This document shows, in pieces, positions 4,372-35,899 of a stretch of DNA of 35,899 bases. The position numbers were made by a program, and so were the translations under genes. Location: positions 1-35,899 of the forward strand of contig JAASTF010000001.1 of NCBI GenBank assembly GCA_021767525.1. The letters run 5' to 3'. Below the pieces are notes generated by a model. It ran no database searches. It was given only the letters and a program-made list of their open reading frames with translations, and was not told the origin of the DNA. Each line of letters begins with the position of its first letter. Position 1 is the first letter of the stretch. Source of the DNA: Paracoccaceae bacterium (GTDB taxonomy: Bacteria > Pseudomonadota > Alphaproteobacteria > Rhodobacterales > Rhodobacteraceae).

Positions 4372-4374
4372 TCG

Positions 4375-8250: not shown

Positions 8251-8277
8251 GCGTTTCTCCCTGTTCGCGCGTTTATG

Positions 8278-8293: not shown

Positions 8294-8312
8294 GTTAAGG
8301 CAAGGTTTTTTC

Positions 8313-8972: not shown

Positions 8973-8981
8973 CCCCCGGCC

Positions 8982-11880: not shown

Positions 11881-11881
11881 A

Positions 11882-12865: not shown

Positions 12866-12889
12866 GTCACGCTCCGTTCAAAGCGGAAA

Positions 12890-12945
12890 GCCGCGCCCGC
12901 TGGCAGCAGGCGCGGCCCAGATCGGGCGGGGACCGGCCCCGCCCG
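12890..12945 (-). terminator. Two GC-rich stem-loops after the substrate-binding protein gene (mRNA stabiliser / partial terminator)
   Basis: CGGGCGGGG-ACCGG-CCCCGCCCG (12923-12945) and GCCGCGCC...GGCGCGGC (12890-12916), followed on the minus strand by TTTCCGCTTT. Confidence 0.6.
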
Positions 12946-12953
12946 CAAGTGGC

Positions 12954-14531: not shown

Positions 14532-14722
14532 GGTTTACTCCCTGTTTTTGCCGGATCGATGCCCGGCCTGATGCGAGGCAAAATAAACAAATCCCCTATA
14601 CCTTCAAGCAATCCCGCGCCAAATTCGACCGCCGATACGCGGGACGCGACGTAAAGTTTCGGTGCAAGCTTGCGTGTCTGAACGGGATTTGTGCATTTGT
14701 GAAAGTTGCCAATCGCGGCGAC

Positions 14723-14731
14723 TGCTATACT
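14723..14731 (+). promoter_or_regulatory. Candidate extended -10 promoter element (TGCTATACT) for the RND operon
   Basis: TGnTATACT about 50 bp upstream of the MFP ATG; no convincing -35 at canonical spacing. Confidence 0.35.
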
Positions 14732-14779
14732 GTTTTCCAAGGCCGCGCGCCGTTGCGCGGTGCAACGCAAGGCACTTGC

Positions 14780-18966: not shown

Positions 18967-18976
18967 GCTGGCACCG

Positions 18977-19019
18977 AAAAAGAAAACGCCCCGGATCCCC
19001 GGGGCGTTTCCGTTTTTTT
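18977..19019. terminator. Bidirectional rho-independent terminator
   Basis: AAACGCCCCGG-ATCC-CCGGGGCGTTT hairpin flanked by an A-run and a T-run, between convergent RND and AKR genes. Confidence 0.85.
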
Positions 19020-19033
19020 GGCTCTAGGGGCGG

Positions 19034-19897: not shown

Positions 19898-20033
19898 GAT
19901 GGGGTTCCTTTCCTTCGCGCGCCCCGATGCGGGCCGCGTGTATATGGGATTGCACCGGTGTCGTAACCGGCCTGTTCGACGGACCTAAGTGCCGATGCCG
20001 CGATGAATAATCGTCGAATTCCTTATGCCATTC

Positions 20034-20048
20034 ATGAGCAGCGCTCAT
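20034..20048. promoter_or_regulatory. Putative LysR box ATGA-N7-TCAT (T-N11-A) upstream of the AKR gene
   Basis: ATGAGCAGCGCTCAT; one of three matching boxes in the cluster. Confidence 0.65.
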
Positions 20049-20154
20049 TTCTGGGCGATCGGCATCCGGCGGGAAGGAAAACGGCGCCCGGGCGTCTTCA
20101 AGGGCCAAAACGCATCCCGCGCCGCCCGGTTCCACCCGCGCGGCGCCGGCAGCG

Positions 20155-20610
20155 TCATTCAACCAGTTCGATCCGCACCGAAACCGGCCCGTCGCGCAGC
20201 AAGGGCGCAAGCGAGCCGTCGAAGGCCCCAACCCGCACCAGCCCGCGCGCGCGTTGAAACGGCTTGTAGAAAATCGCCAGGTTCCCCCACGGCGCATACA
20301 CCGTGATGTCACCGGTTTCGGGCTTGTAGCTGTCCGGCGCATCCGAGATGTCCAGCGCGCGCGGCAGGTCGGCGACCTTTTCGATCCCGTGGTAATCGGT
20401 CAGCACCAGCTCAAGCGGCAGCATCGCGGCGAAATCCCGGCCTGCCGTGCTGTCGTCCAACCGTGCGGGCAACATGTCGTCGCCCGCGATCACATGAATG
20501 CGTGTCATGCCGTCGCCTCCGCTTGCGCTGTTCTGTGCCGTGGCCATGTGCGCGCAGACCGAAAAGATACCAACAAGCACGGCGCCGCCGATCTTTTTGC
20601 CATGGAACAT
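20155..20610 (-). CDS. Cyclophilin-like fold protein with signal peptide
   Basis: LDDSTAGRDFAAMLPL, DYHGIEK, GDITVYAPWGNLAIFY pattern; hydrophobic N-terminus ending ATA-Q. Confidence 0.85.
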   Translation of the reverse strand: MFHGKKIGGAVLVGIFSVCAHMATAQNSASGGDGMTRIHVIAGDDMLPARLDDSTAGRDFAAMLPLELVLTDYHGIEKVADLPRALDISDAPDSYKPETGDITVYAPWGNLAIFYKPFQRARGLVRVGAFDGSLAPLLRDGPVSVRIELVE

Positions 20611-20715
20611 GCCTGCATCCTTTCGCCAGTTGCATACGCGCCCAACCGCCGGTGGGCTTGGCCAGTATCACCCGCCGCCCCGAAAACGGGAATAGTGTCC
20701 GATCGCATGGCAGCC

Positions 20716-20730
20716 ATGACCGCCCCTCAT
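20716..20730. promoter_or_regulatory. Putative LysR box ATGA-N7-TCAT in the divergent cyclophilin-like/lysR promoter region
   Basis: ATGACCGCCCCTCAT, roughly midway between the two divergent starts. Confidence 0.6.
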
Positions 20731-20833
20731 CAATCGCGCCGTAAAAGCCCGGCTATCAGGTGGACGGCGACAAGCCTGCCCTTGTATTCTGCCCCTTGTC
20801 ACTTGCCCCGCCCAAGCCACGGATCGAAAGCCC

Positions 20834-21739
20834 ATGCTTCGCGAAAACATCAACGACCTGATCGCCCTTGCCGCGGTTGCCGAAGAGCGCAGCTTTACCC
20901 GCGCCGCCGCGCGCCTGAACGTGTCGCAATCGGCGCTCAGCCACACGATCAAGGGGTTGGAACAGCGCCTCGGGATGCGGCTGTTGACGCGCACCACCCG
21001 CTCGGTCGCGCCGACGATAGAAGGCGAAGACCTGCTGGCCACCCTGACCCCCTGTTTCGAGATGATTGAATCCCGCCTGCGCGCGCTGAATGACGCCCGC
21101 GACCAGCCCACCGGCACCGTGCGGATCGCCGCCACCGAATACGCGATCGAAACGCTGCTTTGGCCCAAGCTGTCTCCGGTGCTGAAGCAGCACCCGGCGA
21201 TCAACATCGAATTCGTGATGGATTACGGCTATACCGATCTGGCCGAGGCGCAATGCGATGCCGGCGTGCGCTATGGCGAACAGGTCAGCGAGGGCATGAT
21301 CTCGATGCGGATCGGCCCGGACGAGCGGATGATCTGTGTCGCCGCCCCGGCCTATTTCGATGCGGCCGGCAAACCCGCCACGCCGCAGGACCTGTCGGAT
21401 CACCGCTGCGTCAACCTGCGCCTGTCGACCCACGGCGCGCTTTACGCGTGGGAGTTCGAGGATGCCGATGGCAGCGAAATCCGCGTCAAGGTGCAGGGCC
21501 AGGCCTGTTTCAACACGATCAACCCGGTGTTGCAGGCGGCGCGTGACGGCCACGGCATCGCGATGGTGCCCGAACGGCTGGCACAGCCGCACCTGGACAG
21601 CGGCGCGCTGCACGTTTGCCTGGACAGCTACTGCCCGCTTTTTCCGGGCTTTCACCTCTATTACCCCAGCCGTCTGCGCCCCTCGTCTGCGTTCGGGGTG
21701 GTTCTGGATGCGCTGCGGGATAATAAGCAGCGGTCATGA
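20834..21739 (+). CDS. LysR family transcriptional regulator (CrgA/PgrR-like)
   Basis: SFTRAAARLNVSQSALSHTIKGLEQRLGMRLLTRTTRSV HTH; DAGVRYGE, YAWEF, GFHLYYPSR. Confidence 0.95.
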   Translation: MLRENINDLIALAAVAEERSFTRAAARLNVSQSALSHTIKGLEQRLGMRLLTRTTRSVAPTIEGEDLLATLTPCFEMIESRLRALNDARDQPTGTVRIAATEYAIETLLWPKLSPVLKQHPAINIEFVMDYGYTDLAEAQCDAGVRYGEQVSEGMISMRIGPDERMICVAAPAYFDAAGKPATPQDLSDHRCVNLRLSTHGALYAWEFEDADGSEIRVKVQGQACFNTINPVLQAARDGHGIAMVPERLAQPHLDSGALHVCLDSYCPLFPGFHLYYPSRLRPSSAFGVVLDALRDNKQRS

Positions 21740-21753
21740 ATGCGGCTCATGAC
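21733..21753. promoter_or_regulatory. Putative LysR box GTCATGA-N7-TCATGAC upstream of the CMD operon
   Basis: GTCATGAATGCGGCTCATGAC with perfect 7-bp arms, overlapping the lysR stop codon. Confidence 0.7.
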
Positions 21754-21837
21754 TGGCGTGACAGCCGCCGCCATTAAGCCCGCCACGCGCGGCCCCACAT
21801 CATCGGAAAGCCCGTCATCCAACCAAAGGAGCATCCG

Positions 21838-22599
21838 ATGAAACGCCGTCTTACCACCGCCGCCCTGGCCCTGATCGCCTCTGGCGCCACCGCCCAGACG
21901 CTGGGCGACACCCTGCCCGACGAGGTGGGCCGCGTTGCACCGGCGCTGCACGCCTACGCGCAGGACGACCTGCTTGGCACCGTTTGGGCCGACCCGGCCC
22001 TGGGCACGCGCGACCGGGCGCTTGTGACGTTCGCGGCGCTGGTCACGCGGCAGGACAGCGCCGATCTGCCCGCCATAATCGCGGTTGCGCTGGATGCCGG
22101 GGTCACCCCGGCCGAGCTGTCGGAGACGGTCACGCATTTGGCCTTTTACACCGGCTGGGGCAATGCCCTGTCCGCCGCGCGGGCGATGGCGCCGGTATTC
22201 GCGGCGCGCGGCATCACCGCAGACAGCCTGCCGCCAGCTGACCCGACGCTCTTGCCGCTGGACCAAGAGGCCGAAGCCGCACGCGAAGACCTGGTGCGCG
22301 GTTTGTATGGCGATGTCAGCATGGGTGTGGTCGACACCACCCGCGACCTGCTGTTCCGCGATCTGTGGCTGCGCCCCGATTTGGCGCCGCGCGACCGCAG
22401 CCTTGTGACCGTTGCGGCGCTGATCGCGGCAGGGCAGTCGGAACAGATGACATTTCACCTGAACCGCGCGATGGATAACGGGCTGACCCGCGCCGAAGCG
22501 GGCGCGATGCTGTCGCATCTGGCCTTTTATGCCGGCTGGCCACGCGTCTTTTCCGCCCTGCCCGTCGCGAAAGAGGTCTTCGAGGCGCGCGCCGACTGA
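21838..22599 (+). CDS. Carboxymuconolactone decarboxylase (CMD/AhpD-like) family protein, tandem domains, with signal peptide
   Basis: Two repeats L..RDR.LVT.AAL...HLAFY.GW; AAGGAG RBS. Confidence 0.9.
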   Translation: MKRRLTTAALALIASGATAQTLGDTLPDEVGRVAPALHAYAQDDLLGTVWADPALGTRDRALVTFAALVTRQDSADLPAIIAVALDAGVTPAELSETVTHLAFYTGWGNALSAARAMAPVFAARGITADSLPPADPTLLPLDQEAEAAREDLVRGLYGDVSMGVVDTTRDLLFRDLWLRPDLAPRDRSLVTVAALIAAGQSEQMTFHLNRAMDNGLTRAEAGAMLSHLAFYAGWPRVFSALPVAKEVFEARAD

Positions 22600-22629
22600 C
22601 ACCCTGCCGCAAAGCAAAGGAGGACCGGC

Positions 22630-23268
22630 ATGAAGATCGGCATTCTGGGATCGGGCCTGATGGGCGCAACGCTGGGGCGTCTTTGGGCGGCCTGCGGCCA
22701 TGACGTGACCTTTGCCTATGCCCGCAGCGAAGAAAAGCTTGCGCGGCTTGCCCGCCAATGCGGCGCGGCGCATGGCAGTATCGCACATGCGGTCGAAGGG
22801 GCCGATGCCCTGTTACTGGCGGTGCATTGGTCGCGGGTGCCTGACGTGTTGGAACAGGCCGGTTCGCTTGACGGTCAGGTGGTTCTGAATTGCTGCGTGC
22901 CTTTGAACGATCAGAACACGCAGCTTGTGGTCGGCACCACCAGTTCGGGCGCCGAGGAATTGGCAAAACGGCGCCCCGGTGCGCGCTGGGTCGCCTGTTT
23001 CAACACCACCCCGTCGGAAAGCTTCGATCCCGTTTTCGCGCGCAAGGGAGGCGCAAATCCCCCGCAGGTTCTGACCTATGGCGATGACGCAGCGGCCAAG
23101 GACATCGCAGGCGGGCTGATCCGCGATATCGGTTTCGCACCGCTGGAAGCGGGCGGGTTGCAAAACGCCCGTTTCATCGAACCTTTCGCACTGGCCACGG
23201 TGGAGTTGGCCTATGTCCAGCCGGGCGGCCCGGCGCTGGTCTATCATTTTGAAAAACTGGGCGGCTGA
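22630..23268 (+). CDS. NADP oxidoreductase (F420-dependent NADP reductase-like family)
   Basis: [50 protein letters not shown] motifs; AGGAGG RBS. Confidence 0.88.
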
Positions 23269-23295
23269 TCCGCGCCCGCATCAAGGAGCAACACA

Positions 23296-23691
23296 ATGAA
23301 AATCACCCGATCCGGCACCAACCCGTCGATGGCCGGCCCCGCCGAATGGTTCACCGGCACCGTGCGCCTGGACCCGCTATTCGCGGCCGAGGCGCCCGGG
23401 CGCACGGCCGGCGCGCATGTCACCTTTGAACCCGGCGCGCGCACCGCCTGGCACACGCACCCCGCGGGCCAGACGCTGATCGTCACGTTCGGGCGTGGCC
23501 GTGTTCAGCGCGAAGGCGGCCCCGTCGAAGAAATCGCCGCCGGAGACGTCGTTTGGTTTCCTGCCGGGGAAAAACACTGGCACGGCGCGGCACCCGACAC
23601 CGCCATGAGCCACATTGCCATCCAGGAAAGCATCGATGGCAGCGCCGTCACCTGGATGGAGCATGTCTCGGACACGGATTACGGGGGCTGA
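23296..23691 (+). CDS. Cupin domain protein
   Basis: [49 protein letters not shown]; AAGGAG RBS. Confidence 0.93.
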
Positions 23692-23939
23692 ATGGCCCGC
23701 CTGCGCCGGGACGGCGTCTTGACGACCGGCGTAATCGGTCGCGCGGGGGCAGGCGCCACATGCGCCGCCCCCGTCATGTCATGCCGGCCGATCCCGGCGC
23801 CATAGCCCTTGGCGCAAAGGCCGGACAGCACGATCTTTCGACACGCCTGCCGCAAGATGCGCGCACGGGCATGATTTGGGCTGGGCCACTCTGGCCGGGA
23901 GGCGCGCCGGCGATCAGAAACGCGCGTGGCGCGGAGTTG

Positions 23940-24866
23940 TCAGAATGCGACCTTGTCGCCGCCCTTGAGGTTCAGGATCTCGCGCGCCTCGTCGGGTGTG
24001 GCGACCTCAAAACCCAGATGCTCGACCATCTCGCGGGCCAGCGTCACCTGCTCGGCGTTGCTTTGGGCCAGTCGGCCGCGTCCGGCGTAAAGCGAATCCT
24101 CCAGGCCCACGCGCAAATGCCCGCCCAGCAGGACCGATTGCAACGCGACGGCCATCTGCGCCTTGCCCGCCCCCAGAACCGACCATTGGTAATCCTGCCC
24201 GAACAGCCGGTCGGCGGTGCGGCGCATATGCTGAACATCTTCGGGATGCGCGCCGATCCCGCCCAAAACGCCAAAGACGGACTGAACGAAAAACGGCGGC
24301 GTCACCAGCCCGCGCTGCACGAAATGCGCCAGTGTGTACAGGTGGCCGATATCGTAGCACTCGATTTCGAACCGGGTGCCATTGCCGGCGCAGGTGGTCA
24401 GGATGCTTTCGATATCGGCGAAGGTGTTGCGGAAAACGCGGTCGCGAGAGCCCTCGATATAGGGTTCTTCCCAGTCGTGCTGAAAGGTCTTGAGCTTGTC
24501 GAGCACTGGGTAAATCCCGAAATTCATCGACCCCATGTTAAGCGAGGCGATCTCGGGCTTGAACACCGCCGCCGGGCCCAGCCGCTCGTCGACCAGCATG
24601 GTGGGCGCCCCGCCGGTGGTGATGTTGATCACCACGTCCGAGCGCTGCTTGATAACGCCCAGGAACGGTTCATACGCCTGGGGCGACTGATCGGGCTTGC
24701 CGGTTTCCGGGTCGCGGGCATGCAGATGGACGATGGCAGCCCCCGCCTCGCGGGCGGCCAGCGCCTCGTCCGCGATCTGGCTGGGGGTGATCGGCAGGTG
24801 GGGCGACATCGAAGGCGTGTGAATGGCGCCGGTGACGGCGCAGGTGATGATGACTTTGCGGGTCAT
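23940..24866 (-). CDS. Beta-keto acid cleavage enzyme (BKACE / DUF849; 3-keto-5-aminohexanoate cleavage family)
   Basis: KVIITCAVTGAIH, AGAAIVHLHAR (HxH), ASLNMGSMNF, EIECYD, RVGLED; GAGG RBS before ATG 24866. Confidence 0.93.
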   Translation of the reverse strand: MTRKVIITCAVTGAIHTPSMSPHLPITPSQIADEALAAREAGAAIVHLHARDPETGKPDQSPQAYEPFLGVIKQRSDVVINITTGGAPTMLVDERLGPAAVFKPEIASLNMGSMNFGIYPVLDKLKTFQHDWEEPYIEGSRDRVFRNTFADIESILTTCAGNGTRFEIECYDIGHLYTLAHFVQRGLVTPPFFVQSVFGVLGGIGAHPEDVQHMRRTADRLFGQDYQWSVLGAGKAQMAVALQSVLLGGHLRVGLEDSLYAGRGRLAQSNAEQVTLAREMVEHLGFEVATPDEAREILNLKGGDKVAF

Positions 24867-25116
24867 GGGCAACCTCGGAACTGGGTTTCTGATAGGAATA
24901 GCGACAGCGCCGGGACCAGCGCAATAGCCACGGGCGCCCACAAGGCAGACCGCCACCGCCGACAGCGCCGCGCCGATGCTTGTGTTGCGCAAGACAACGC
25001 GCGGGATTGATGCGGCCGACCGGCCACCCCACAACCCCTGGTCGCATTTCCGGCGCAGCGGCACAAAAGCCCGCGAAACAACCGCCGCAAAGCCTCCGGT
25101 GACGGCGACAAGGTTG

Positions 25117-25145
25117 TTGACAGGTATCGCGGCAATCGCTGGAAT
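25117..25145 (+). promoter_or_regulatory. Candidate sigma70 promoter for the phosphoesterase operon (TTGACA-N17-TGGAAT)
   Basis: Perfect -35 hexamer, weak -10; GGGGGA RBS before ATG 25161. Confidence 0.4.
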
Positions 25146-25160
25146 GACGCAGGGGGAATT

Positions 25161-26552
25161 ATGGTCAACTGGGTATGCGTTTCTGATCTTCATGCCGGTG
25201 GGCTGACCAGCCTCTTGCACGAGATCGACCGCCTGTCGGACGGCGCGCCGCGCGTCACGGCGGCCTTTTCCGCCGCGCTTGCCGCGTTTCTGGACGACCT
25301 GCGCCCGGACGACGCGCCCAAACCGCAACTTATTCTGCTGGGCGACGTTCTTGATCTGCAATTCGCAAAACGCAGCGCGGCGACGCGCGACGCGGTTGCG
25401 TTTCTCGCCCCCTTGGCCGAAGCGGGCTGTTTCGCACCCACGGTGATCGCGACGGCGGGCAACCACGACCACAGCCTGTGGACCGAGGCGCGGCTGGCCA
25501 TGGAGGCCCGCGCCTTCGAACAGGGGCGCGATGACAGCCCGGTGCACACCCCCGCCTTTGGGCCCGCCGAAGCGGCGCAAAGCGCGTTGTTGCAGGCGGT
25601 GTTGCGCAAAGCGGGCTTCGGATCGCTGGACCTGCGCTATCCCAATATCGGTTTTGCCGACGGCCGCCGTGCGGTGGTTCTGCATCACGGCCATTACATC
25701 GAAGACGCCTATCGCGTCGTCAGCACGGTGAAAGCCGCGCTTGGCGCGGATCGCGCCACGCCGATGACGGTCGGTACCCTGGCGGCGGAAAACGCCAGCT
25801 GGATCGATTTCGCCTGGTCGCCCTTGAACGACGCCGATGGGCTGGAGCGGCTGTACCAGAATTTCCTGACCACCGCCGGCTTTCGCCGCATCACGCGCGG
25901 CTGGACCGACCGGGCCGCCGCCGCGCTGTCGCGGGCGCTGCCCCTGCCCGGCAATCCGATGATGCAGCAGGCCCTGCGCGCCATCACCAAAGCGGGGGTC
26001 GAGGCCACGCTGGGCCGCGCGCGCGACACCGAAAGGATGGCCGAGGTGCTGTCGCTGACCGACAGCGGCCGTGCCGGGCTGCTTTGGTATCTGGAACAGC
26101 CGGTGCTGGAACAGATGAGGGCCGAAATCCCGGACTTCGAGGGCGAGGTCACTTTCGTGATGGGGCACACGCATCGCCCGTTCGCGATGCGCGTCAAGCC
26201 GCGCGGCTATGGCGACACGGTGCGCGTTTACAATACCGGCGGCTGGACGTTGAACGGCCCGCGGCTCGACAATGCCGAGGGCGCGGCCCTTGTGCTGATC
26301 GACGATCGGCTGAACACCGCCGCGTTGCGGCTGTTTTCGACCCCGCGCAATGGCAAGGTGCCCGACGCCCGGATCGAGATGCTGTCGAACGGCCATGACG
26401 ATGAAACCGCGTTCCAGCACAAGCTGGACACCAGCCTGAAACGCACCCGGCCCTCGTGGGACCGCCTGACCCAAGAGGTGACGAACGCCTATGTCGCGCG
26501 CCAAGAACTGCTGATCTCGATGACCGCCGCCTTTGACGAGGCGGCGGAATGA
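25161..26552 (+). CDS. Calcineurin-like metallophosphoesterase
   Basis: All five motifs present: SDLH, LGDVLD, GNHD, HHGH, MGHTH, plus NTGGW. Confidence 0.88.
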   Translation: MVNWVCVSDLHAGGLTSLLHEIDRLSDGAPRVTAAFSAALAAFLDDLRPDDAPKPQLILLGDVLDLQFAKRSAATRDAVAFLAPLAEAGCFAPTVIATAGNHDHSLWTEARLAMEARAFEQGRDDSPVHTPAFGPAEAAQSALLQAVLRKAGFGSLDLRYPNIGFADGRRAVVLHHGHYIEDAYRVVSTVKAALGADRATPMTVGTLAAENASWIDFAWSPLNDADGLERLYQNFLTTAGFRRITRGWTDRAAAALSRALPLPGNPMMQQALRAITKAGVEATLGRARDTERMAEVLSLTDSGRAGLLWYLEQPVLEQMRAEIPDFEGEVTFVMGHTHRPFAMRVKPRGYGDTVRVYNTGGWTLNGPRLDNAEGAALVLIDDRLNTAALRLFSTPRNGKVPDARIEMLSNGHDDETAFQHKLDTSLKRTRPSWDRLTQEVTNAYVARQELLISMTAAFDEAAE

Positions 26553-29500
26553 CGCCCGGGTTCAAACCGATCTCGACCGATTTCGCCACGCTTGCAAAGT
26601 GCGATTTCGATGTGATCGTCGTCGGCTCGGGTTACGGCGGGTCGGTTGCGGCGTCGCGCCTGGCGCGCTGCGGCAAATCTGTGGCCGTTCTGGAACGCGG
26701 GCGCGAGATCGTGCCGGGCGAATACCCGCGCGATGCGGGCGCGGTGTCGGGCGCGTTTCAAACCACTCTGTCCGGCGACACGATCGGCGAACGGGATGCG
26801 CTGTTCGACCTGCGGGTGTTTGACGACATGACCGTTCTGGTCGGGTGCGGCCTGGGCGGCACGTCGCTGATCAATGCCAATGTCGCCATTGCGCCCGAGC
26901 CGCGCGTGTTCGACGCCTGGCCGCAGCCGCCCGAAGGCGACTGGCCCACCGCGCTGGCCCCGCACCTGGCGCAGGCACGGGCCATGCTGGGCTCGACCTC
27001 TTATCCGGCCCACAAAACGCCGCCGAAACTGCACGCGATGCAGCGGATCGCCGCGGGGCTGGGCCGCAATTTGCAGCGCCCCGATATCAACGTGACCTTT
27101 CGTGACGGGCCGAACGCCGCCGGTATCTGGCAACCCGCCTGCGTCGATTGCGGCGACTGCGTGACCGGCTGCAATTATGGCGCCAAGAACACGACGCTGA
27201 TGAACTATCTGCCCGACGCCCACGCCTTTGGCGCAACGCTGGTGACAGGGGCCGAGGTTCTGACGGTCGCCCGCATCGCGCCCAAGACGCCCGACGCCGC
27301 CCCGCGCTGGCACGTCACGGCCCGACCGGTCACCGACGCCCCCGCCGCGCCTGCGCGGGGGCTGACGGGCGATGTTGTGATCCTTGCCGCCGGAACGCTG
27401 GGCAGCACCGAAATCCTGTTGCGCAGCGCCGCCGACCTGCCGCTAAGCCCCCGGCTGGGGCACGGCTTTTCCGGCAATGGCGACAGCTGGTCGCTTGGTT
27501 TCAATGCCAACATGCCGGACGAAACCGGCCGGCGCGCCGCCGTTTACGCGATCGGCGCAGGCCCGCATGGCATCCCCCCCGGCCCGGCCCCGACGGGGCC
27601 CGATTTGCACCGCCCCGGGCCGTGCATCACCGGCATGATCCATGTGACCGACCCGGCACTGGACAAAACCGTGATGATCGAAGAGGGCGTGATCCCCGGC
27701 GCCTTCGCCGCCGCCTGCGCCGTGGGCATTCCCGGGCTTGCCACGCTGGAAAGCGATCCGTTTCGGTATGGCGACCTGGCGCAGCGCGCCGGTGACATGG
27801 CCGATCTGGCCGCAAACATCACGGGCGACCCGGCAAAGCTGGCGGACAGCGTGTATGACGGCCCCGTGTCGCGCACCCTGCCTTTTCTGACCTTCAGCCA
27901 CGATGCGGCCGCGGGCGGGATGACATTGCGCCACGGCCGGGTATCGGTCAGCTGGGAGGGTGCGGGCCAGGATGCGGCCCTGGCCCATTCCGATGCGGCG
28001 CTGAAAAAGGCCTGCGACACGATCCAGGCAGAATATCTGCGCTTTCCCACCGCCTTGGATGCTTTCGGCAACCGAACGATGGTGGTCCATCCTCTGGGCG
28101 GCTGCGCGATCGGCGCCGATGCGACGACGGGCGTCGTCGACACCGAATGCCGGGTGTTCGACGGCCGGGGCGACGTGCATCAGGGGCTTTACGTTATGGA
28201 CGGCGCGATTATCCCCACGGCACTGGGCGCAAACCCGCATCTGACGATCACCGCGCTGGCCGAACGCGCGGTCACGCGGCTGGCCGAGGCCCGGCATTGG
28301 CATATCGACTGGGCCCCGCCCCCAGACCGCCAAAGCACGCCCACGGACAGCACACCCGATTACGCGCAGGTGCTAAAGCAGGTGATCGACGGGCTTCAGG
28401 CCATCGCCACCGCCATCGACGGCAAGGCGTTCGAACTGGCGCGATTGCTGCTGATGGGGGCCTGGCGTCAGGTCATCGAGTTTGCCCGGCAACGCGACGA
28501 CAGGCTGACGGGCGGGCGGCACAACTTTCCCACTGTCGAGCGTTTCATCCGGTATTTCGGCACGCCCGAGGCATTGGTGTCGACGACCGGCCCCATCATC
28601 GGGCAATTCCTCGACATCCTCGTGCCGCTGCAAATGACGGTCGACAAGGGCGATCTGCCCGCCCTGCTGGTCCTGCTTGAACGAAAGCTCGGGGATTTTT
28701 CGCCCGCCGCCCGCTTCCCCGAGGAAATGGCCGGGCATATCTCGCCCATTGGGGTCGACGATCCCGAAAGCGGCTTTGACGCGCACGACATTCTGGGCGA
28801 AGGGGCCTGGCCCTGCCATCTGAAAGCCACGCTGACGGCCGACCGCATCGCGGCCCTGGGCGCCGAGCCCGTGGGCAGCGCCGAGATGAAACACGCCAGC
28901 TTCACCTGCGCGGGGCTGGGCGGCACGTTTCACCTGACAGGGACCTTCAAGTTTCTCGCGCTCGACCCGCGCGCGGTGGACCGCTGGCGCGTCACCTATG
29001 ACGGGCGACTGACGCATGACGATGGCACCTCTTTCATGTTTCGCGGGCGCAAGACGCTGCAACATCGCAAGGGCGGGCATTGGTGGCGCGATCTGTGCGA
29101 TCTGGATGTCGATATCCTGGACGGCGACACGCCGGTTGCGCGCGGGCGGATGCAGGTCAGCCTGGAAAACGCGATCCGGCAGGCGCACGGCTTTGACGTG
29201 CGCTATGACGATTTGACGGATGCGCCGCAGTCGGTCTGGGACAGGATCAAGGAAACCGTCGGCGGTGGCGCGGACTGGCCGATCTGCAAAAGGCCCGATG
29301 TGTCCAAGCTGCCGGCGCTGTTTCGCGAAACCGGCTTTCGCGTGCTTTGCGCCAAGGCGGCGCTGGCGATACTTGATGCCGACGCAGCAAAAACACGGGC
29401 GCCCGCCCCTTCGGAACAGGTGGCGCAGGCGTTCAAGGCGCGCTTTCTGGCGCGGGCGGCAGGGCTGGTGTTTCGCAGCTATGGCGGGATCTACGCCTAT

Positions 29501-30730
29501 GGCGTCAACTTTCCCTATCGCGATCTGCAAGACACGCCCCCGGCCCGGCCCGACCTGCCGACGCCCGAGATCCTGTACCCCGAACCCGAGCCGGGCGTGG
29601 TTCTGAAACTGACCCGCTATCGCAAACCCCGTCCGGATGGCGCGCCGTTGAAAGGCCCGGTGATCCTGGCCAACGGTTTCGGCGTCAAGGCGTCGGCCTT
29701 TGCGGTGCCGACGACGTTCACCAACATCGTGGAAATGCTGGTCGAAGACGGGTTCGACGTGTGGTTGTTCGACTATCGCGGCAGCGGTGATGCTGCCGGC
29801 AGCACGACACGCTTTACCATCGATGACGTAGCGCAAAAGGACTGGCCCGCGGCGATCGACATGGTTCTGGCCCGCACCGGTGCCGCAAAGGTGCAGGTTC
29901 TGGCGCATTGCGTCGGATCGCTGTCGCTGTTCATGGCCGTGCTGGCGGGCGAAAGGCGCATCCGTTCGATCATCGCCTCGCAAGTGGGCGCGCACGGGAT
30001 CGTCAACTGGTTCAAGAATGCCCAGTTCGACGCCCAGATCGGCGGTGCTGTCGCCAACGGCCTGCCGCCCGCACTGTGGCCTCTGGTGGACATGCTGGGC
30101 CTCGATGACGAGCTGGCGACGCTGGCCAGGACCGGCCTGCCGGTCGTCGATGTGCGCGCGCCCACCGAAACCTATTCCGCGCCGCTGAACGCCGCGATGG
30201 ACGCGCTGCTGTGGTCGGTGCCGCATTTCTCGGATGTGCCCTGCAAGAACCCGACCTGCCATCGCATCAACTTTGTCTATGGCCCCACCTACCGGCACGA
30301 GAACCTCAACCAGGCCACACATAATTACATCCACCGGATGTTCGGCCCTGTCTCGTCGACGCCGTTTCTGCATCTTGCGCTGATGTTCGACGCCGGCAAA
30401 CTGCTCAGCGCGACGCTGGCTCCCGATGGCACGGTCCGGCCCGACGGCAAGACCCGGTATTACGACGGCCACGCCAACCTGGATATGCCGGTGCATTTCT
30501 TTTCCGGGGCGCAAAACCCCGAAATCCTGCCCGAAGCGACGCTGCGCAGCTATCACTGGCTGCGCCGCGTGAACGAAAGGCCCGACCGCTATACCAGGCA
30601 TGTTTACCAGGGCTATGGCCACATGGACTGCTTTGTCGGACGCGATGCATGGAAAGACATCTTTCCCGACCTTCTTGCCCTTTTGAACGACCCCGAAAAG
30701 GCCGCGAAACGCTATGCCGACGACACCTGA
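26549..30730 (+). CDS. Fusion protein: cholesterol-oxidase-like GMC oxidoreductase + uncharacterised middle domain + alpha/beta hydrolase (1393 aa)
   Basis: VGSGYGG, LERG, GLGGTSLINANV, CVDCGDCVTGC, AAGTLGSTEIL, HPLGGC, GLYVMDG..IPTALGANP; C-terminal GFDVWLFDYRGS, AHCVG, GYGHMD; ATGA coupling with the upstream gene. Confidence 0.9.
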   Translation: MTPGFKPISTDFATLAKCDFDVIVVGSGYGGSVAASRLARCGKSVAVLERGREIVPGEYPRDAGAVSGAFQTTLSGDTIGERDALFDLRVFDDMTVLVGCGLGGTSLINANVAIAPEPRVFDAWPQPPEGDWPTALAPHLAQARAMLGSTSYPAHKTPPKLHAMQRIAAGLGRNLQRPDINVTFRDGPNAAGIWQPACVDCGDCVTGCNYGAKNTTLMNYLPDAHAFGATLVTGAEVLTVARIAPKTPDAAPRWHVTARPVTDAPAAPARGLTGDVVILAAGTLGSTEILLRSAADLPLSPRLGHGFSGNGDSWSLGFNANMPDETGRRAAVYAIGAGPHGIPPGPAPTGPDLHRPGPCITGMIHVTDPALDKTVMIEEGVIPGAFAAACAVGIPGLATLESDPFRYGDLAQRAGDMADLAANITGDPAKLADSVYDGPVSRTLPFLTFSHDAAAGGMTLRHGRVSVSWEGAGQDAALAHSDAALKKACDTIQAEYLRFPTALDAFGNRTMVVHPLGGCAIGADATTGVVDTECRVFDGRGDVHQGLYVMDGAIIPTALGANPHLTITALAERAVTRLAEARHWHIDWAPPPDRQSTPTDSTPDYAQVLKQVIDGLQAIATAIDGKAFELARLLLMGAWRQVIEFARQRDDRLTGGRHNFPTVERFIRYFGTPEALVSTTGPIIGQFLDILVPLQMTVDKGDLPALLVLLERKLGDFSPAARFPEEMAGHISPIGVDDPESGFDAHDILGEGAWPCHLKATLTADRIAALGAEPVGSAEMKHASFTCAGLGGTFHLTGTFKFLALDPRAVDRWRVTYDGRLTHDDGTSFMFRGRKTLQHRKGGHWWRDLCDLDVDILDGDTPVARGRMQVSLENAIRQAHGFDVRYDDLTDAPQSVWDRIKETVGGGADWPICKRPDVSKLPALFRETGFRVLCAKAALAILDADAAKTRAPAPSEQVAQAFKARFLARAAGLVFRSYGGIYAYGVNFPYRDLQDTPPARPDLPTPEILYPEPEPGVVLKLTRYRKPRPDGAPLKGPVILANGFGVKASAFAVPTTFTNIVEMLVEDGFDVWLFDYRGSGDAAGSTTRFTIDDVAQKDWPAAIDMVLARTGAAKVQVLAHCVGSLSLFMAVLAGERRIRSIIASQVGAHGIVNWFKNAQFDAQIGGAVANGLPPALWPLVDMLGLDDELATLARTGLPVVDVRAPTETYSAPLNAAMDALLWSVPHFSDVPCKNPTCHRINFVYGPTYRHENLNQATHNYIHRMFGPVSSTPFLHLALMFDAGKLLSATLAPDGTVRPDGKTRYYDGHANLDMPVHFFSGAQNPEILPEATLRSYHWLRRVNERPDRYTRHVYQGYGHMDCFVGRDAWKDIFPDLLALLNDPEKAAKRYADDT

Positions 30731-33700
30731 GGGCGACACGCGCTGGACGGCGATCCTGTCGGCGGACATGGCCGGCTTTACCGAGATTTCGCAGGCCATC
30801 GGCCCCGAGCGGGTCTATGCCTTGCTGACCATCGTGCTGGATCACGCCCGCGCCGCCATCGCCGCCCATGACGGGCATGTGGTGGATACCGCGGGCGATG
30901 GCATCCTGGCCGCCTTCGGTGCACCGCGGGCGCTGGAAAACGCGGCGCTTTGCGCCTGTCGCGCGGCGCTTGATTTTCAGGACCGGCTGCAACGCGAACG
31001 GCAGCGGCTGGAATCCGAATTCGACGCCCTGATCCTGTTCCGGGTGGGCATCGCCGGCGGCAACACGATGGTCGCGCGGCTGGACGATGGCGGCATCAAG
31101 GTGGTCGGTCCCGCGGTCAACACCGTGGCGCGCCTGCAGGATCTGGCCATGCCGGGCGAAACGCTGATTTCCGACGCGGTGCGCCAACAGGCCGAGGGCC
31201 ATGTCAGAAGCGCCGATATCGGGCATGTCACCTTGAAAGGTTTTCCCGATCCGGTGCGGGTTCACAAGCTGGAAGGCGCCGAGGTGGCGGTCAGCAGCTT
31301 CGACGCCGCGCGCCGGCGCGGCCTGGTCGGGCTGGTGGGTCGCGGGCCCGAGTTGCGGCAGATCCTGTCCGCCCTGTCCGACCCCTCCGATCACGGCGTC
31401 ATGTTCCTGCGGGGCCCTGCGGGCATAGGCAAATCGCGCCTCGCTCACGAGGCCAGCATCGCAAGCGGCCTACGGGTGTTGACCGGCCAATGTCAGCCTT
31501 CGTCGAACTCGCGCGCCTACCAGCCCTTTTCCGAGATCTTCCGCCAGGCCGCCGATGTGGCAGCAGACGGCGACGTGCCAGACCCCGCGGCGCCCATCCT
31601 GATGCGCCACCCCGATTTGAGGGCCGAGTAGGCGGATATCGGCGCCGGTGACGACATACGTGACCAAACCGGCCGCGCGTTGCGGCTGCGCCTGCTATAC
31701 CTGAAGCTGCTGGAACGGATCGCCAGTGACGCCCCGACGCTGTTCGTGATCGAAGATGCCCATTGGATCGATCCGGCCTCTGGCGCCCTGCTGGCGCGGC
31801 TGGTGGAAAGCGGCCTGCCTTTGCTGCTGACGGCACGCCCCGGCCATGACCCGGACTGGATCGCGCGAGACAACGTGACCGTGCTGGACCTGGCGCCGCT
31901 GGATGACCCTGACATCGCGCGCATCGCGCAGGCGACGATCGCCATGCCGATCTCGGACAGGGTGGCACGTTTCGTGACCACGAAGGCCGAAGGCAACCCG
32001 CTGATCGCGCAGGAAATCGCCCGCGCACTGTCACAGGACGGGCATTTGGCGATAATCGACACCGGTGCCGACATGCAGCACGATCCCGGCCCGCTGGTGA
32101 CCGGCCAGCTAGAGCAGATGGTGCTGTCACGTATCGACCGGCTGGGTGCCACACAGCAGGAAACGATGCGTTTTGCCTCGACCATCGGTCGCGTTTTCGC
32201 CGCCTCGACGCTGGAGGCCGCGTTGCAGCGCCCCGCCGACCTGGCTGGTATCGCCCAGACCCCCGGCCTGATCGAACAGGTGGCGCCCGGGCGATGGCGC
32301 TTTGTACATGCGCTGATCCGCGACGCAGTTTACGGCAGCCTGCTGTCTGCCCACCGCCGCGAGGTGCACCACAAGATCGCCCGGGCGCTGGACGCCGCGC
32401 AAGGCAACGACAGCGATCTGGCGGCGGCTGTCGCGCATCATTATCTGCACTCGGACGCGCCCGAACTGGCCGCGCCGCATCTTGTGCGCGCCGCCGGGCA
32501 CAGCCTTGGCGCCTATGCGCTGGCCGAAACCGATGCCTTGTCGACCCGGGCCCATGACCTTGAGGTGCGCAATCCCGGTCTGCTGGACGATCGCAGCTAT
32601 GCCGACATGGCGGTGTATTGGCTACGCGCGATGGACAACATGGGCGATTTCCGGCGCGGTATGGCCCTGTCGCGGCAATTGCTGCCCCGGCTCGAGGCGA
32701 TGGGCTATTCCACGTCGCTGGGCATTTCCCGGATGCTGACGACAATCGCCCTGACCCACGCCTGGGACTATGACGCCGCCCACCGGATGGCGCAAACGAC
32801 GCTGGACCAGGCCGAAAGGCAGGGCGACGACTGGGGCGCGGCTTGGGCCAAGGTCGCCCTGATGCGGATCTTTGACGAAAGCAAGCGCGCCGATATCGCC
32901 ACGATCGAGCGGCTCTCTGCCGAAATCGCGCCCGTCGCCCTGCAAACCGACGACCGTCACATGGCGATGACGGCGCACTACCTGTTGTCGTCCGCTTACC
33001 GCTCGACCGGGCAGCGGCGCAAGGCGCTGGCGCAGGTCAAGACCATCGAAACCTTCTCGGTCACCCAAAACGACCGGCGGGCCATGGGCTATGCGAAATG
33101 GGCCCGCGCGCTGGTTCACGCGGTCGAAGGCGACCCGCAACGCGCTCATGACGCGATACGGGACGCGCGCGATTACGTCATCCCCGGCTCGGGCGATGAA
33201 AGGGTCAGCCTGGGCATCGTCTATTTCTGCGCCTCCTTCCTGGGCGCGCCCGGCGACGCCCCCGCCGGAATCGCCGCGCTGGAACACGAGGCCGCGCGCA
33301 TGGCCGACCGCAACATCGAGGGCTCGATGGCCTATACAAGCGCCTTCGCCGATCTGCGCGCAGGCGCCCTGGCCCGTGGCTGGCGCAAGCTGAACGCGTT
33401 GGAGCGGTATATCGGCCCAAAAGGCAACGTGAACCTGATGCACCAGGTTCTTGCCACGCGCTGCGAAATCCTGTTGGCGCTGGCCGGGCTGATCGATCCC
33501 GCGTCCGAGCGGCCGCAAGGCGCGCCCGGCCGTCCAGCCACCCGCCCCGGCCTTGCAGATATGCTGCTTTACGCGCAGCTTCGGCCGCGCGCCCTGCGCC
33601 TGGCCGAACGAACGATCGCCGCCAGCCACGCCCTGCCCAACGGGTTGGAAAGCGCGCATAGCACACGGCACACCATTGCCCTGGGCCTGATCCACCTGGC

Positions 33701-33815
33701 CCGCGGGCATCGGCAACAGGGCCGTGCGCTGCTGCAAGACGGGTTGGCCCTGGCCGAAAGCGAGGGGGTCGACATTCTGGCCCGCCGCGCCCGAACCGCG
33801 TTGGAAGCGGGCTGA
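30714..33815 (+). pseudogene. Class III nucleotide cyclase-STAND (AAA) ATPase-helical repeat protein, interrupted by one in-frame TAG at 31629-31631
   Basis: ORFs 30714..31631 and 31680..33815 are in the same frame with only one stop between them. Cyclase motifs SADMAGFT, AGDG, VNTVARL; Walker A GPAGIGKS before the stop; Walker B FVIEDAHWID, TARP, EGNPL, FVHALIRDAVY after it. Confidence 0.85.
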
Positions 33816-33866
33816 ACGCCCGCGCCGTGCGTCATTTTCCTCGGCACGGGGGGCGGTCTGTGCTAG

Positions 33867-33885
33867 TGATTTGCCAATCAAATCA
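33867..33885. promoter_or_regulatory. Inverted repeat TGATTTG-N5-CAAATCA upstream of the Crp-family gene
   Basis: Perfect 7-bp AT-rich arms immediately before the start codon. Confidence 0.5.
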
Positions 33886-33890
33886 GATCG

Positions 33891-34610
33891 GTGGCGTATA
33901 TGAACGGCGAGGCGGCTTCTGATGGCGATCTGCGCCGCATTTTGATCCGCGCCTTGGGCGATGATGCGCCCGAGGCCTTGTTCGGCACCGCCCGGCCCGT
34001 GCGCTTTGCCCGCGGGGCGACGATCTTTTCGATCGGCGATCCGGGCACCGGCGTGATCCTGATCGAAAGCGGACGGGTCGAGGTGTCGACCATGTCGGTC
34101 GCGGGGCGCAAATCGGTGCTGGCCCATATGGGCCCCGGCGCGCTTTTGGGCGATATCGCCGCCTTGGACGGGGGCGGTCGGTCAGCCGATGCGGTGGCCG
34201 CGACCGACGTGACCGGGCGGTTCCTGCCGCGCGAGACTTTGCTGAAGTTCATCGGCGCGCACCCGGCGCTGGCCCGCGCGATCATCGTCGAGCTGTGCCG
34301 AAAGGCGCGCAATGCCTCGGATATGTTCGTCACGCAAACCCTGCCCGAGGCCGAGGCGCGACTGGCGCGTGCCCTGTTATGCCTGTTCGATGGCTGGGGC
34401 ACCGCCGACAGCTACGGCGCGATCACCCTGACCGAACGGTTTTCGCAACAGGACCTGGGCGCCTTTTGCAGCCTCGCGCGCGAAAATGTCAGCCGTCAGA
34501 TCACCGCCTGGACCGCGCAGGGTATCCTGGCCAATCGCGACCGCCGGCTGGTTCTGCTGGACCGTGCGCGGCTGCAGGCTTTGGCCGAGGGCTGGACATC
34601 GCAGACCTAA
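33891..34610 (+). CDS. Crp/Fnr family transcriptional regulator (cNMP-binding domain + HTH)
   Basis: IFSIGDPG, IESGRVEV, GPGALLGDIAALDGGGRSADAVA, FSQQDLG....ARENVSR; no Fnr Cys cluster. Start GTG 33891 or ATG 33900. Confidence 0.92.
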   Translation: MAYMNGEAASDGDLRRILIRALGDDAPEALFGTARPVRFARGATIFSIGDPGTGVILIESGRVEVSTMSVAGRKSVLAHMGPGALLGDIAALDGGGRSADAVAATDVTGRFLPRETLLKFIGAHPALARAIIVELCRKARNASDMFVTQTLPEAEARLARALLCLFDGWGTADSYGAITLTERFSQQDLGAFCSLARENVSRQITAWTAQGILANRDRRLVLLDRARLQALAEGWTSQT

Positions 34611-35899
34611 AAGGCGCACGGGCCTGCGTCGCTGCGCACCATGCGCAGCACGACCGAGCGTGCGAACAGCTCTTCCAGCGGGCTTTCGATGTCAGGGCTC
34701 AGCCCGGTTATACCCAGCAACGTGTCGCGGCGACGCTCGAAATCGGCCGTGTCGGTGAACCTGCCAAAGCGCGGCAGGAACGACTCAAGCGTACCGGCGG
34801 CGGCGCTGGCATCGATCAGTTGGGTCATCGGCGCATGGGTGCCATCTGCCAGCGTGACCAGGACGCGCGGCAGGGCTGCGGCATCCATCAATTCGCCCAG
34901 ACGCCGCATCGCGCCCAGCCGGCGCCCTTCGGCAAGGTAGTAATTCAACCGGTCTGGCGCGGCGGTGCCCGAGGGGCCATCCCAGGACGGGCTTGCCAGG
35001 CCGATCATGTCGATCTGAACAGTGGCGTTGCCCACCAGGCAGCTTTCCAGCGTCTCGGCGATCCGCGCGAAATAGCTGACACCGTCGGGTGTGACGACGG
35101 GATCGGTCAGGTTCGCCGTATCCGCTCCCCAGTCGAACGCGCCTTGCGGCGTTTCACCGCTGCGCACCGGCGTGGTGAAAAAGGGCAGGACAAGCGCGTT
35201 CTGCAGCCCTTGCACCGCCGCCTCGTCGCCCCCTGGCAGGGTGATCGATGTCTGAAAGATATGCGCATTGACACCGGCCGGCGCATCGCCGTCCGGCGGC
35301 ACCCGGATGGCGGGGGTCACGATCAGCGCGGCGGGTGCCGCGCCAGAAGGGACCGGCCACTGGCCCAGCGCCAGGCCCAGCGCCCCTTGCTGGGCGATCA
35401 GCGCTGACAACTTGTCATCGAGCAGCGTGACAAGCGCGGCCCCGCTGCGATCACCGGTAAGCTGCGCGGCAAGCGTCGCACCCAGCCGGGTGCCATCGGC
35501 CAGGGCAAGGCGCAATTCGCGCAATTCATGGATCAGACCGCCGGCGCCATCCGCCCCGTCGAAAAACGCCAGCATATGATCCGGCAAATCCAACCGGCTG
35601 GTGGCAGGACCGGCCCCGGCAAAGACGATTTCCAAAGCCTGCGCCATCGAGATATCGCCGCCCAAATGGCCGCGCACCGTGTTCAGCGCCGCCAGTATCG
35701 CGGCCACGTCGATCCGCGCCGGGTCGGGGTTGGACAGGGCGATCGCGATGCTTTGGCGCGCCTTAAGCATGATCGGGTCAGCCAGTCTTGGTGCGGGGGT
35801 CGCCCCGGCCATCACCGCCTGTGTCAGGATTTCAAGGCTTGTATGGCCCAGGTCCACCGTGACTGCCGCGGCCTGGCCCTGCCCGGCCTCCTTCTGCGC
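34607..35899 (-). CDS. Hypothetical protein, C-terminal part (5' end outside window), with probable divergent OmpA/MotB-like C-terminal domain
   Basis: Frame is open from the window edge (AQKEAGQGQAAAVTVDLGH...). AFDWG...FARIAETL...VQIDMIGLAS...NYYLAEGR...ARSVVL resembles the OmpA_C pattern. Confidence 0.7.
   Translation of the reverse strand, partial: AQKEAGQGQAAAVTVDLGHTSLEILTQAVMAGATPAPRLADPIMLKARQSIAIALSNPDPARIDVAAILAALNTVRGHLGGDISMAQALEIVFAGAGPATSRLDLPDHMLAFFDGADGAGGLIHELRELRLALADGTRLGATLAAQLTGDRSGAALVTLLDDKLSALIAQQGALGLALGQWPVPSGAAPAALIVTPAIRVPPDGDAPAGVNAHIFQTSITLPGGDEAAVQGLQNALVLPFFTTPVRSGETPQGAFDWGADTANLTDPVVTPDGVSYFARIAETLESCLVGNATVQIDMIGLASPSWDGPSGTAAPDRLNYYLAEGRRLGAMRRLGELMDAAALPRVLVTLADGTHAPMTQLIDASAAAGTLESFLPRFGRFTDTADFERRRDTLLGITGLSPDIESPLEELFARSVVLRMVRSDAGPCAF

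What the first reader, a model, noticed from the sequence alone, without database searches (positions are those of the whole stretch)
31629..31631. Single in-frame amber stop splits the cyclase-STAND gene between Walker A and Walker B
Seen: reading through ...DLRAE*ADIGAGDDIRDQTGRALRLR... gives one continuous 1033-codon protein with no frameshift or other decay. The stop leaves a 305-aa product holding the whole cyclase domain plus Walker A, and removes Walker B, the winged helix and the sensor repeats. Inference: a recent nonsense mutation (e.g. from TTG, TGG, CAG or GAG), a sequencing error, or readthrough. A truncated product could be a cyclase freed from STAND control, or the system may have been switched off because it is costly.
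Basis: partly seen in the sequence, partly recalled or inferred. Interest (0 to 1): 0.7.

Follow-up and report, generated by a model that had tools for sequence, protein, structure and literature searches.

The report
Nonsense-broken cyclase in conserved signalling module
A premature stop codon, present in three assemblies of what is probably one marine sample, cuts a bacterial signalling-enzyme gene that is whole in its relatives; it is most likely an ordinary, very recent knock-out, but the gene sits in a conserved gene cluster we did not find in print, whose cyclase is predicted to make cGMP.

Summary
The TAG at 31629-31631 is there: codon 306 of a 1033-codon class III cyclase–STAND–helical-repeat gene, between Walker A and Walker B. 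Three assemblies carry it (the window, a Logan contig at depth 13, an ENA contig). They probably come from one sample but differ at nearby polymorphic sites, so a base-call error is unlikely. All 24 aligned homologues and 16 of 16 related loci are open across the site, a variable linker; the nearest have Tyr/His/Asn/His/Asp there. Nothing points to recoding: no PylS, no CUA tRNA, RF1 present, no hairpin, no ribosome-binding site at 31680. The part behind the stop shows no decay, so the mutation is young. Best reading: recent nonsense knock-out of an accessory sensor (about 0.72). A deregulated cyclase-only product remains possible (about 0.12; precedent: mammalian truncated sAC). More interesting is the context: this phosphoesterase gene lies with a cyclase-STAND gene in 11 of 11 family genomes that have it, with a cholesterol-oxidase-like/hydrolase fusion in 10 and often a Crp. 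The cyclase has Asp58/Lys129 where adenylate cyclases have Lys/Asp, predicting cGMP.

The parts
31629..31631 (+). In-frame TAG, codon 306, in the helical insert between strands 2 and 3 of the STAND NTPase sheet
   Evidence: Sequence; same letters in the Logan contig; model places helices at 300-304 and 308-311, strands at 229-233, 254-259, 342-347, 370-374, 388-392
30714..33815 (+). Whole cyclase–STAND–winged-helix–helical-repeat gene, 1033 codons with one internal stop
   Evidence: model mean pLDDT 86; Foldseek hits class III cyclases and the STAND-TPR protein 6mfv
30714..31631 (+). Predicted truncated product, 305 aa: complete cyclase domain plus Walker A and 2 of 5 NTPase strands
   Evidence: same sequence on record from NCBI, Logan and ENA
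30885..30887 (+). Asp58, first base-selecting position of the cyclase (Lys in adenylate cyclases, Glu in Cya2)
   Evidence: phmmer alignments to 2w01, 6fht, 1wc0, 3mr7; D in 23 of 24 homologues, one lacking the region
31098..31100 (+). Lys129, second base-selecting position (Thr in CyaC, Gly in Cya2)
   Evidence: K in 18, R in 4, T and A in 1 each of 24 homologues
31413..31436 (+). Walker A (GPAGIGKS), intact, before the stop
31740..31757 (+). Walker B (LFVIED), intact, after the stop
   Evidence: E347 and D348 in 24 of 24 homologues
31680..33815 (+). 711-aa downstream ORF that gene callers start at a TTG; probably not a real gene start
   Evidence: anti-Shine-Dalgarno duplex -1.7 kcal/mol against -3.4 to -9.4 at the four real starts
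25161..26552 (+). Calcineurin-like metallophosphoesterase, first gene of the module; intact
   Evidence: Pfam PF00149 E 6e-6; GNHD and GHTH motifs in the translation and in 14 of 15 related loci for GHTH
26549..30730 (+). Cholesterol-oxidase-like GMC oxidoreductase fused to an alpha/beta hydrolase with Cys at the nucleophile elbow (AHCVG); overlaps the cyclase start; intact
   Evidence: closest solved sequences: cholesterol oxidases (E 7e-21) and lysosomal acid lipase (E 4e-5)
33900..34610 (+). Crp/Fnr-family regulator (cNMP-binding plus HTH), likely reader of the cyclic nucleotide; intact
   Evidence: a Crp-type gene lies next to the module in 6 of 12 related loci scanned

Best explanation
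A single TAG interrupts the cyclase-STAND gene at codon 306, and it is most likely a very recent nonsense mutation that knocked out an accessory ligand-sensing cyclase in this population. Shown: the stop is in three assemblies, relatives are continuous, the site is a variable linker, and the part behind the stop is not decayed. Inferred: translation ends at residue 305, leaving a cyclase domain attached to two of five strands of the NTPase sheet. That stub probably cannot fold as a nucleotide switch, so sensing is lost and the product is probably unstable or unregulated. The likeliest single-base origin is TAC/TAT (Tyr); CAG or GAG are possible. Inferred for the intact system: the helical-repeat sensor binds a ligand (perhaps a lipid- or sterol-like substrate or product of the neighbouring oxidase-hydrolase), the STAND switch brings cyclase domains together, they likely make cGMP, the Crp reads it, and the phosphoesterase may remove it or act on the same substrate. 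The module is patchy among relatives, so its loss is probably cheap.
For: Stop real: a Logan contig of 9350 nt (depth 13.2) spans 24828-34177 with 9 other letters, none at the TAG. The 305-aa and 711-aa products are on record from NCBI, Logan and ENA. The ENA contig (43,296 nt) is a different assembly from the window (35,899 nt); its Crp has N8/H17 like the Logan contig and unlike the window, so consensuses that differ at 31322 (window against Logan) and at 33921/33949 agree at the TAG. Ancestrally one gene: 24 of 24 aligned homologues of 38-65% identity are continuous; 16 of 16 related loci have no stop between Walker A and B; a search of 167-534-aa proteins found only the window's own product, a fragment that clusters with a 1051-aa protein, and one 37% match that runs past Walker B. 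Young: departures from conserved columns are 6 of 78 before and 15 of 172 after the stop, inside the 4-22% range of intact homologues; terminal branch 0.43 before, 0.31 after; 5 of 5 differences between window and Logan contig in the gene are synonymous, 4 behind the stop. Dispensable: found in 7 of 400 family genomes at E<=1e-30 and 0 of 4 congeners. Not a noisy assembly: of 14 in-frame-stop candidates in the genome, only this one has a Pfam domain across the stop.
Against: No raw reads or RNA were available, only contigs, which drop minor alleles. The holding run matches the window exactly over long contigs, so it is probably the source sample, not an independent one. The other three genes of the module are intact, and lack of decay fits retained function as well as youth. 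The stop spares the whole cyclase domain, which a gain-of-function allele would also do. No homologue closer than 65% was found, so the parent codon is inferred. The four synonymous differences behind the stop lie within 34 nt and probably count as one event.
Confidence: 0.72

Rival explanations
1. The stop is a gain-of-function allele: it frees the cyclase from STAND control, the 305-aa protein dimerises and makes cyclic nucleotide all the time, the Crp is permanently on, and the allele spread for that reason.
For: The cyclase domain (13-186) is whole, with D18, D62, N136 and R140 kept, and the model joins it to the NTPase by a low-confidence linker at 190-205. Mammalian sACt arises from a premature stop that removes the STAND-containing tail and has higher specific activity than the full form (PMC12802110, passages). 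The Crp and phosphoesterase genes are intact, and the TAG is in all three consensuses.
Against: No family of cyclase-plus-half-STAND proteins was found among 7998 scored candidates of 167-534 aa, and 0 of 16 related loci are cut there. The product carries a half-built NTPase (2 of 5 strands), likely a degradation signal (inference). Bacterial STAND domains are usually thought to activate by oligomerising (recalled), so removal could equally leave the cyclase inactive. A random nonsense hit falls behind the cyclase domain about 82% of the time, so the position is no evidence.
Confidence: 0.12
2. The TAG is an artefact of library or assembly, or only one allele of a population that also holds an intact gene.
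For: All assemblies probably share one sample. The population is mixed: a bubble at 34148-34262 has two forms at depth 10.8 and 5.9. Contigs drop rare variants. Only 1 run held the stretch.
Against: Three assemblies that choose different alleles elsewhere agree here; depth 13; no alternative letter listed at 31629-31631 with the threshold at 1 in 100; the genome shows no other domain-internal stop among 14 candidates.
Confidence: 0.08
3. The TAG is read through (programmed or by a suppressor), giving regulated amounts of short and full-length protein.
For: The site is a variable linker that tolerates at least eight residues, so any inserted residue would probably work. Nothing behind it has decayed. 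The tRNA list is incomplete (no Phe, Asn, His or Ile tRNA among 39), so a suppressor could be unassembled.
Against: The stop is in no relative. No PylS, no CUA-anticodon tRNA among 39, RF1 over the cut-off, TAG ends 367 of 2589 coding-like frames. The 102 nt from the stop fold no better than shuffles (z 0.06); no Rfam match.
Confidence: 0.05
4. The gene has split into two working genes, with a restart at or near TTG 31680, and the halves reassemble.
For: Gene callers annotate a 711-aa ORF from 31680.
Against: No ribosome-binding site at 31680 or at any start before Walker B (-1.7 kcal/mol or weaker); the first ATG is 104 codons on. The cut would part one beta-sheet between two chains. No relative is split there.
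Confidence: 0.03

Closest known systems
Young bacterial nonsense pseudogenes of signalling genes (general class; own knowledge)
   Same: One premature stop, intact relatives, no decay yet, patchy accessory gene.
   Different: Nothing essential; here the catalytic domain is spared.
Class III cyclase–STAND (AAA_16)–TPR proteins; PH0952-type STAND-TPR structure 6mfv
   Same: Guanylate_cyc plus AAA_16, winged helix and helical repeats; Foldseek 6mfv E 4e-11.
   Different: The near clade has D/K at the base-selecting sites, whereas the commonest pairs in 142 other cyclase-bearing loci were K/T (28) and Q/T (20) and none was D/K; it is tied to a phosphoesterase and a GMC-hydrolase gene. The name PH0952 is recalled.
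Mammalian soluble adenylyl cyclase, sACfl and truncated sACt (PMC12802110, passages)
   Same: Cyclase followed by a STAND region; a premature stop yields a cyclase-only form, reported as more active.
   Different: sACt is made by conserved exon skipping and ends after the catalytic domains; here the stop is in no relative and leaves half an NTPase.
Guanylate cyclases Cya2 (2w01) and PfPucC of Pucsar (bioRxiv 10.64898/2026.08.12.744502, passages)
   Same: Acidic residue at the first base-selecting site; PfPucC uses E118/K195 for guanine in its model, four residues before the second metal Asp, the same spacing as D58/D62.
   Different: Asp instead of Glu; fused to STAND; partner is a Crp transcription factor, not a TIR or membrane effector. 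Not aligned directly to PfPucC, and that preprint's legend writes Gly118 where the text has Glu118.
Rhodospirillum centenum gcy–cgrA and Sinorhizobium meliloti cyclase–Clr–SpdA loci (PMC10187061 passages; PMC4222275 abstract start only)
   Same: Alphaproteobacterial cyclase next to a Crp that responds to cNMP; a phosphodiesterase was described for the S. meliloti system.
   Different: No STAND sensor or GMC-hydrolase fusion is mentioned in the passages seen.

Membership tests
Nonsense pseudogene | Relatives encode one uninterrupted protein | tested here: met
   24 of 24 aligned proteins; 16 of 16 loci
Nonsense pseudogene | The stop is in the organism's DNA | tested here: met
   Three assemblies; probably one sample; no raw reads
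Nonsense pseudogene | The stop removes essential parts | tested here: met
   Walker B, 3 of 5 NTPase strands, winged helix and repeats lost
Nonsense pseudogene | Relaxed selection behind the stop | tested here: inconclusive
   No decay seen: fits a very young lesion but does not show loss of function
Nonsense pseudogene | No functional product | not testable with these tools
   No RNA holder listed; needs proteomics or assay
Programmed readthrough / pyrrolysine / stop reassignment | Stop position conserved in relatives | tested here: not met
   0 of 16 loci and 0 of 24 proteins
Programmed readthrough / pyrrolysine / stop reassignment | Decoding machinery (PylS, CUA tRNA) or loss of RF1 | tested here: not met
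   genome 90% complete and tRNA list incomplete
Programmed readthrough / pyrrolysine / stop reassignment | RNA structure behind the stop | tested here: not met
   z 0.06; no Rfam match
Class III cyclase–STAND–TPR protein | Two metal aspartates and the Asn/Arg transition-state pair | tested here: met
   D18, D62, N136, R140
Class III cyclase–STAND–TPR protein | STAND NTPase with Walker A/B, winged helix and helical repeats | tested here: met
   In the read-through product
Guanylate cyclase | Acidic residue at the first base-selecting site instead of Lys | tested here: met
   D58 aligns with Glu of 2w01 and Lys of 6fht, 1wc0, 3mr7; roles of the sites from PMC4215837
Guanylate cyclase | Makes cGMP from GTP | not testable with these tools
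   Needs an assay; PMC4215837 warns that residue swaps often lower activity rather than switch it
Pycsar / Pucsar antiphage systems | Stand-alone cyclase with a cNMP-binding TIR or membrane effector | tested here: not met
   PycC models match only the cyclase domain (best E 1e-13); the neighbour has an HTH, not TIR/TM
Cholesterol oxidase (NF058674) | Score over the curated cut-off | tested here: not met
   178.6 against 850 bits: related fold family only

The most novel reading that the evidence does not exclude
The gene belongs to an undescribed roseobacter signalling module: a STAND-controlled guanylate cyclase with a reversed Asp/Lys base pocket, a Crp-type cGMP reader, a metallophosphoesterase and a sterol-oxidase-like/Cys-hydrolase fusion that together sense and process a lipid-like compound. 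In this population the amber stop may have turned it into a sensor-free, always-on cyclase, a bacterial parallel of truncated mammalian sAC. The probability given is for the module working as one cGMP circuit; the always-on allele on top of it is about 0.1.
Probability: 0.35. Interest if true: 0.55.

Novelty: new member of a known kind. Interest (0 to 1): 0.25.

Why it matters
The stop itself matters little: it is one more young loss-of-function allele in an accessory gene. The module could matter. Few bacterial cGMP circuits are characterised, and the ligands and outputs of the large bacterial cyclase-STAND family are mostly unknown (own knowledge). A family with a fixed set of neighbours (oxidase-hydrolase, phosphoesterase, Crp) offers a direct guess at ligand, messenger and reader. 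The natural truncation is a ready-made test of whether a bacterial STAND domain restrains or activates its cyclase.

Tried and rejected
Raw reads: none offered; no RNA holder listed. Runs X2 and X3 held only short, dissimilar pieces. The first genome-wide screen for in-frame stops (9 candidates) missed this very gene; a looser one gave 14 including it. It sees only in-frame stops with long coding flanks, not frameshifts, so it is no full pseudogene count; for 5 of the 13 other candidates only one side had a Pfam match. Single-sequence fold of the 305-aa product gave pLDDT 37 and is uninformative. CAP-type TGTGA-N6-TCACA sites upstream of the phosphoesterase: best 8 of 10 matches in 3 of 16 loci, 7 of 10 in the window, no shuffle control, so no support. 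Promoter/terminator scan at chance level. Crp decay considered: its Glu-to-Asp change in the ligand pocket (E85D) also occurs in 6 of 95 homologues, including two of the three nearest, so it is no sign of decay. The phosphoesterase had no relative among solved structures and no match in 400 genomes drawn across the class at E<=1e-25. Metagenome scan gave mostly distant cyclase-STAND loci, none closer than 35%. The Atlas look-up of the oxidase-hydrolase and the deep profile search of the phosphoesterase returned no answer, so the middle domain of the fusion and the module's range outside this family stay open. Literature: four term searches for the gene combination found 0, 0, 0 and 1 unrelated paper; the library lacks most subscription papers. 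No supplements were read; those of the Pucsar preprint may bear on the D/K claim.

Full report
Observation. The window is the whole of contig C187 of a fragmented genome (416 contigs, 90% complete, 4.9% contamination). The one run that holds it is labelled marine metagenome, and named homologues point to the roseobacter group (inference). The frame 30714-33815 has one internal stop, TAG at 31629-31631, codon 306 of 1033. Pfam finds the cyclase at 13-186 and AAA_16 at 207-367, across the stop. An AlphaFold model from a 25-sequence alignment (mean pLDDT 86) shows cyclase, a loose linker (190-205), a five-stranded NTPase sheet, a winged helix and helical repeats; the stop lies in the helical insert after the second strand. 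Foldseek matches class III cyclases and a STAND-TPR structure.

Is the stop real? Of 3 runs laid, one covers the region. Its 9350-nt contig (depth 13.2) spans the gene with 9 other letters and none at the TAG. The 305-aa and 711-aa products are on record from NCBI, Logan and ENA. The ENA record lies on a 43,296-nt contig and the NCBI one on 35,899 nt. The ENA Crp differs from the window's at two residues, the same two that the Logan contig changes. So three assemblies that pick different alleles nearby agree on TAG. Against independence: seven of the eight longest contigs of that run over 4001-24000 match the window without a difference, so it is probably the source sample; the population is mixed (bubble at depth 10.8 and 5.9); contigs hide minor alleles.

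Was it one gene? The search returned 35 proteins at E<=1e-60, one the window's own; the best 24 others were aligned and all run through the site. That search sees only 568-1808 aa, so shorter forms were sought apart: 3 hits among 7998 candidates, namely the window's product, a 504-aa fragment that clusters with a 1051-aa protein, and a 408-aa 37% match that includes Walker B. At DNA level 16 of 16 related loci are open between Walker A and B. One of them (L116) has a frameshift much later, near residue 620. The column of the stop is variable (A 8, D 5, E 4, H 2, K 2, Y, N, S), with Y, H, N, H, D in the five nearest. Of the codons one base from TAG, Tyr fits best; that is inference.

Recoding or restart? 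No PylS, no CUA-anticodon tRNA among 39 tRNAs (list incomplete), RF1 present, TAG ends 367 of 2589 coding-like frames, no unusual fold behind the stop (z 0.06), no Rfam match. Starts between the stop and Walker B have no ribosome-binding site. A screen of the genome gave 14 in-frame-stop candidates; in the 13 others no Pfam stretch crosses the stop. An earlier, stricter screen missed this gene, so sensitivity is limited.

Age. The part behind the stop departs from conserved columns at 15 of 172 sites (8.7%), against 6 of 78 (7.7%) before it; intact homologues range 4-22%. The terminal branch is shorter behind the stop (0.31) than before it (0.43). All 5 window-versus-Logan differences in the gene are synonymous, 4 of them behind the stop but within 34 nt. 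The lesion is therefore young; these tests cannot tell a young dead gene from one still in use.

The module. Close orthologues were found in 7 of 400 family genomes and 0 of 4 congeners. The upstream phosphoesterase was found in 11 of the same 400. In all 11 a cyclase-STAND gene lies in the same cluster, in tandem or divergent, and the GMC-hydrolase fusion is there in 10. Four further loci from other collections (L022, L026, L114, L115) have all three genes. A Crp-type gene is adjacent in 6 of 12 loci whose neighbours were scanned (42 of the ORFs listed). Kin are not independent, but identities go down to about 30% and gene order varies. The fusion's closest solved relatives are cholesterol oxidases and acid lipases, far below the family cut-off; its hydrolase has Cys at the nucleophile elbow.

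The messenger. Asp58 aligns with the Glu of guanylate cyclase Cya2 and with Lys in adenylate cyclases; Lys129 aligns with Gly of Cya2 and Thr of CyaC. Adenylate cyclases use Lys/Asp at these sites (PMC4215837, passages). D58 is in 23 of 24 near homologues and K/R129 in 22 of 24. A cGMP-making Pucsar cyclase has Glu118/Lys195 at the guanine edge in its model (10.64898/2026.08.12.744502, passages). So cGMP is predicted for this clade. Against a family-wide claim: among 16 module loci only 3 have D/K and 1 E/K; others have T/N, E/N, K/D and more. Uridylate cyclases also use an Asp and an Arg (PMC11224242, passages), so a pyrimidine is not excluded. cGMP-responsive Crp proteins next to cyclases are known in alphaproteobacteria (PMC10187061, passages).

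Mechanism and verdict. Most likely (0.72) a recent nonsense mutation has removed the switch and sensor of an accessory cyclase. The freed-cyclase reading (0.12) has a precedent in mammalian sACt (PMC12802110, passages) but no support in this family. Artefact or mixed allele 0.08, readthrough 0.05, true split 0.03. The stop is ordinary. The gene cluster was not found in four literature searches or in this scan's earlier notes and is the part worth following. Interest 0.25.

Noticed in passing
window 25161-34610; L107, L022, L112, L026, L108-L111, L114, L115, L219-L223: Conserved cluster of metallophosphoesterase, GMC oxidoreductase/alpha-beta hydrolase fusion, cyclase-STAND and often Crp; tandem in some genomes, divergent in others; not found in the literature searches.
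   Followed up: yes
window 30885-30887 and 31098-31100: Base-selecting residues are Asp/Lys, the reverse of adenylate cyclases; they vary widely in distant members of the module, suggesting different messengers.
   Followed up: partly
window 29549-30730: The hydrolase domain has Cys at the nucleophile elbow (AHCVG), with weak matches to PHA synthase models; it could be an acyltransferase rather than a hydrolase. The domain at about residues 600-1000 of the fusion has no Pfam match.
   Followed up: partly
window 33182-33215, 34148-34262, 16713-16812: Differences between window and Logan contigs come in tight clusters between long identical stretches, like recombination tracts from a related strain; two haplotypes at about 2:1 at 34148-34262.
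   Followed up: partly
window 33921, 33949: Two amino-acid differences (D8N, R17H) between haplotypes in the Crp N-terminus.
   Followed up: partly
L022:13666-15840; L108:6552-9002: Caspase-domain (Peptidase_C14) genes lie near the module in two loci, next to the Crp in L108.
   Followed up: no
L116:849-3957; L107:4851-8946: Related genes with frameshifts: the cyclase-STAND of L116 near residue 620, and the GMC-hydrolase of L107; real or assembly error not checked.
   Followed up: no
L026:1384-2803: Two cNMP-binding genes (one Crp, one without a detected HTH) follow the GMC-hydrolase gene.
   Followed up: no
window 34607-35899 (-): 430-aa open-ended gene with no Pfam, NCBIfam or PADLOC match, converging on the Crp; not seen in related module loci.
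   Followed up: no
window about 25115-25120: A TTGACA/TTGACT hexamer lies 40-55 nt before the phosphoesterase start in the window, L107, L108 and L109: a likely conserved -35 element.
   Followed up: no
G036:C1:1256356-1258029 (L018): A distant cyclase-STAND homologue in another genome also shows one TAG inside the match.
   Followed up: no
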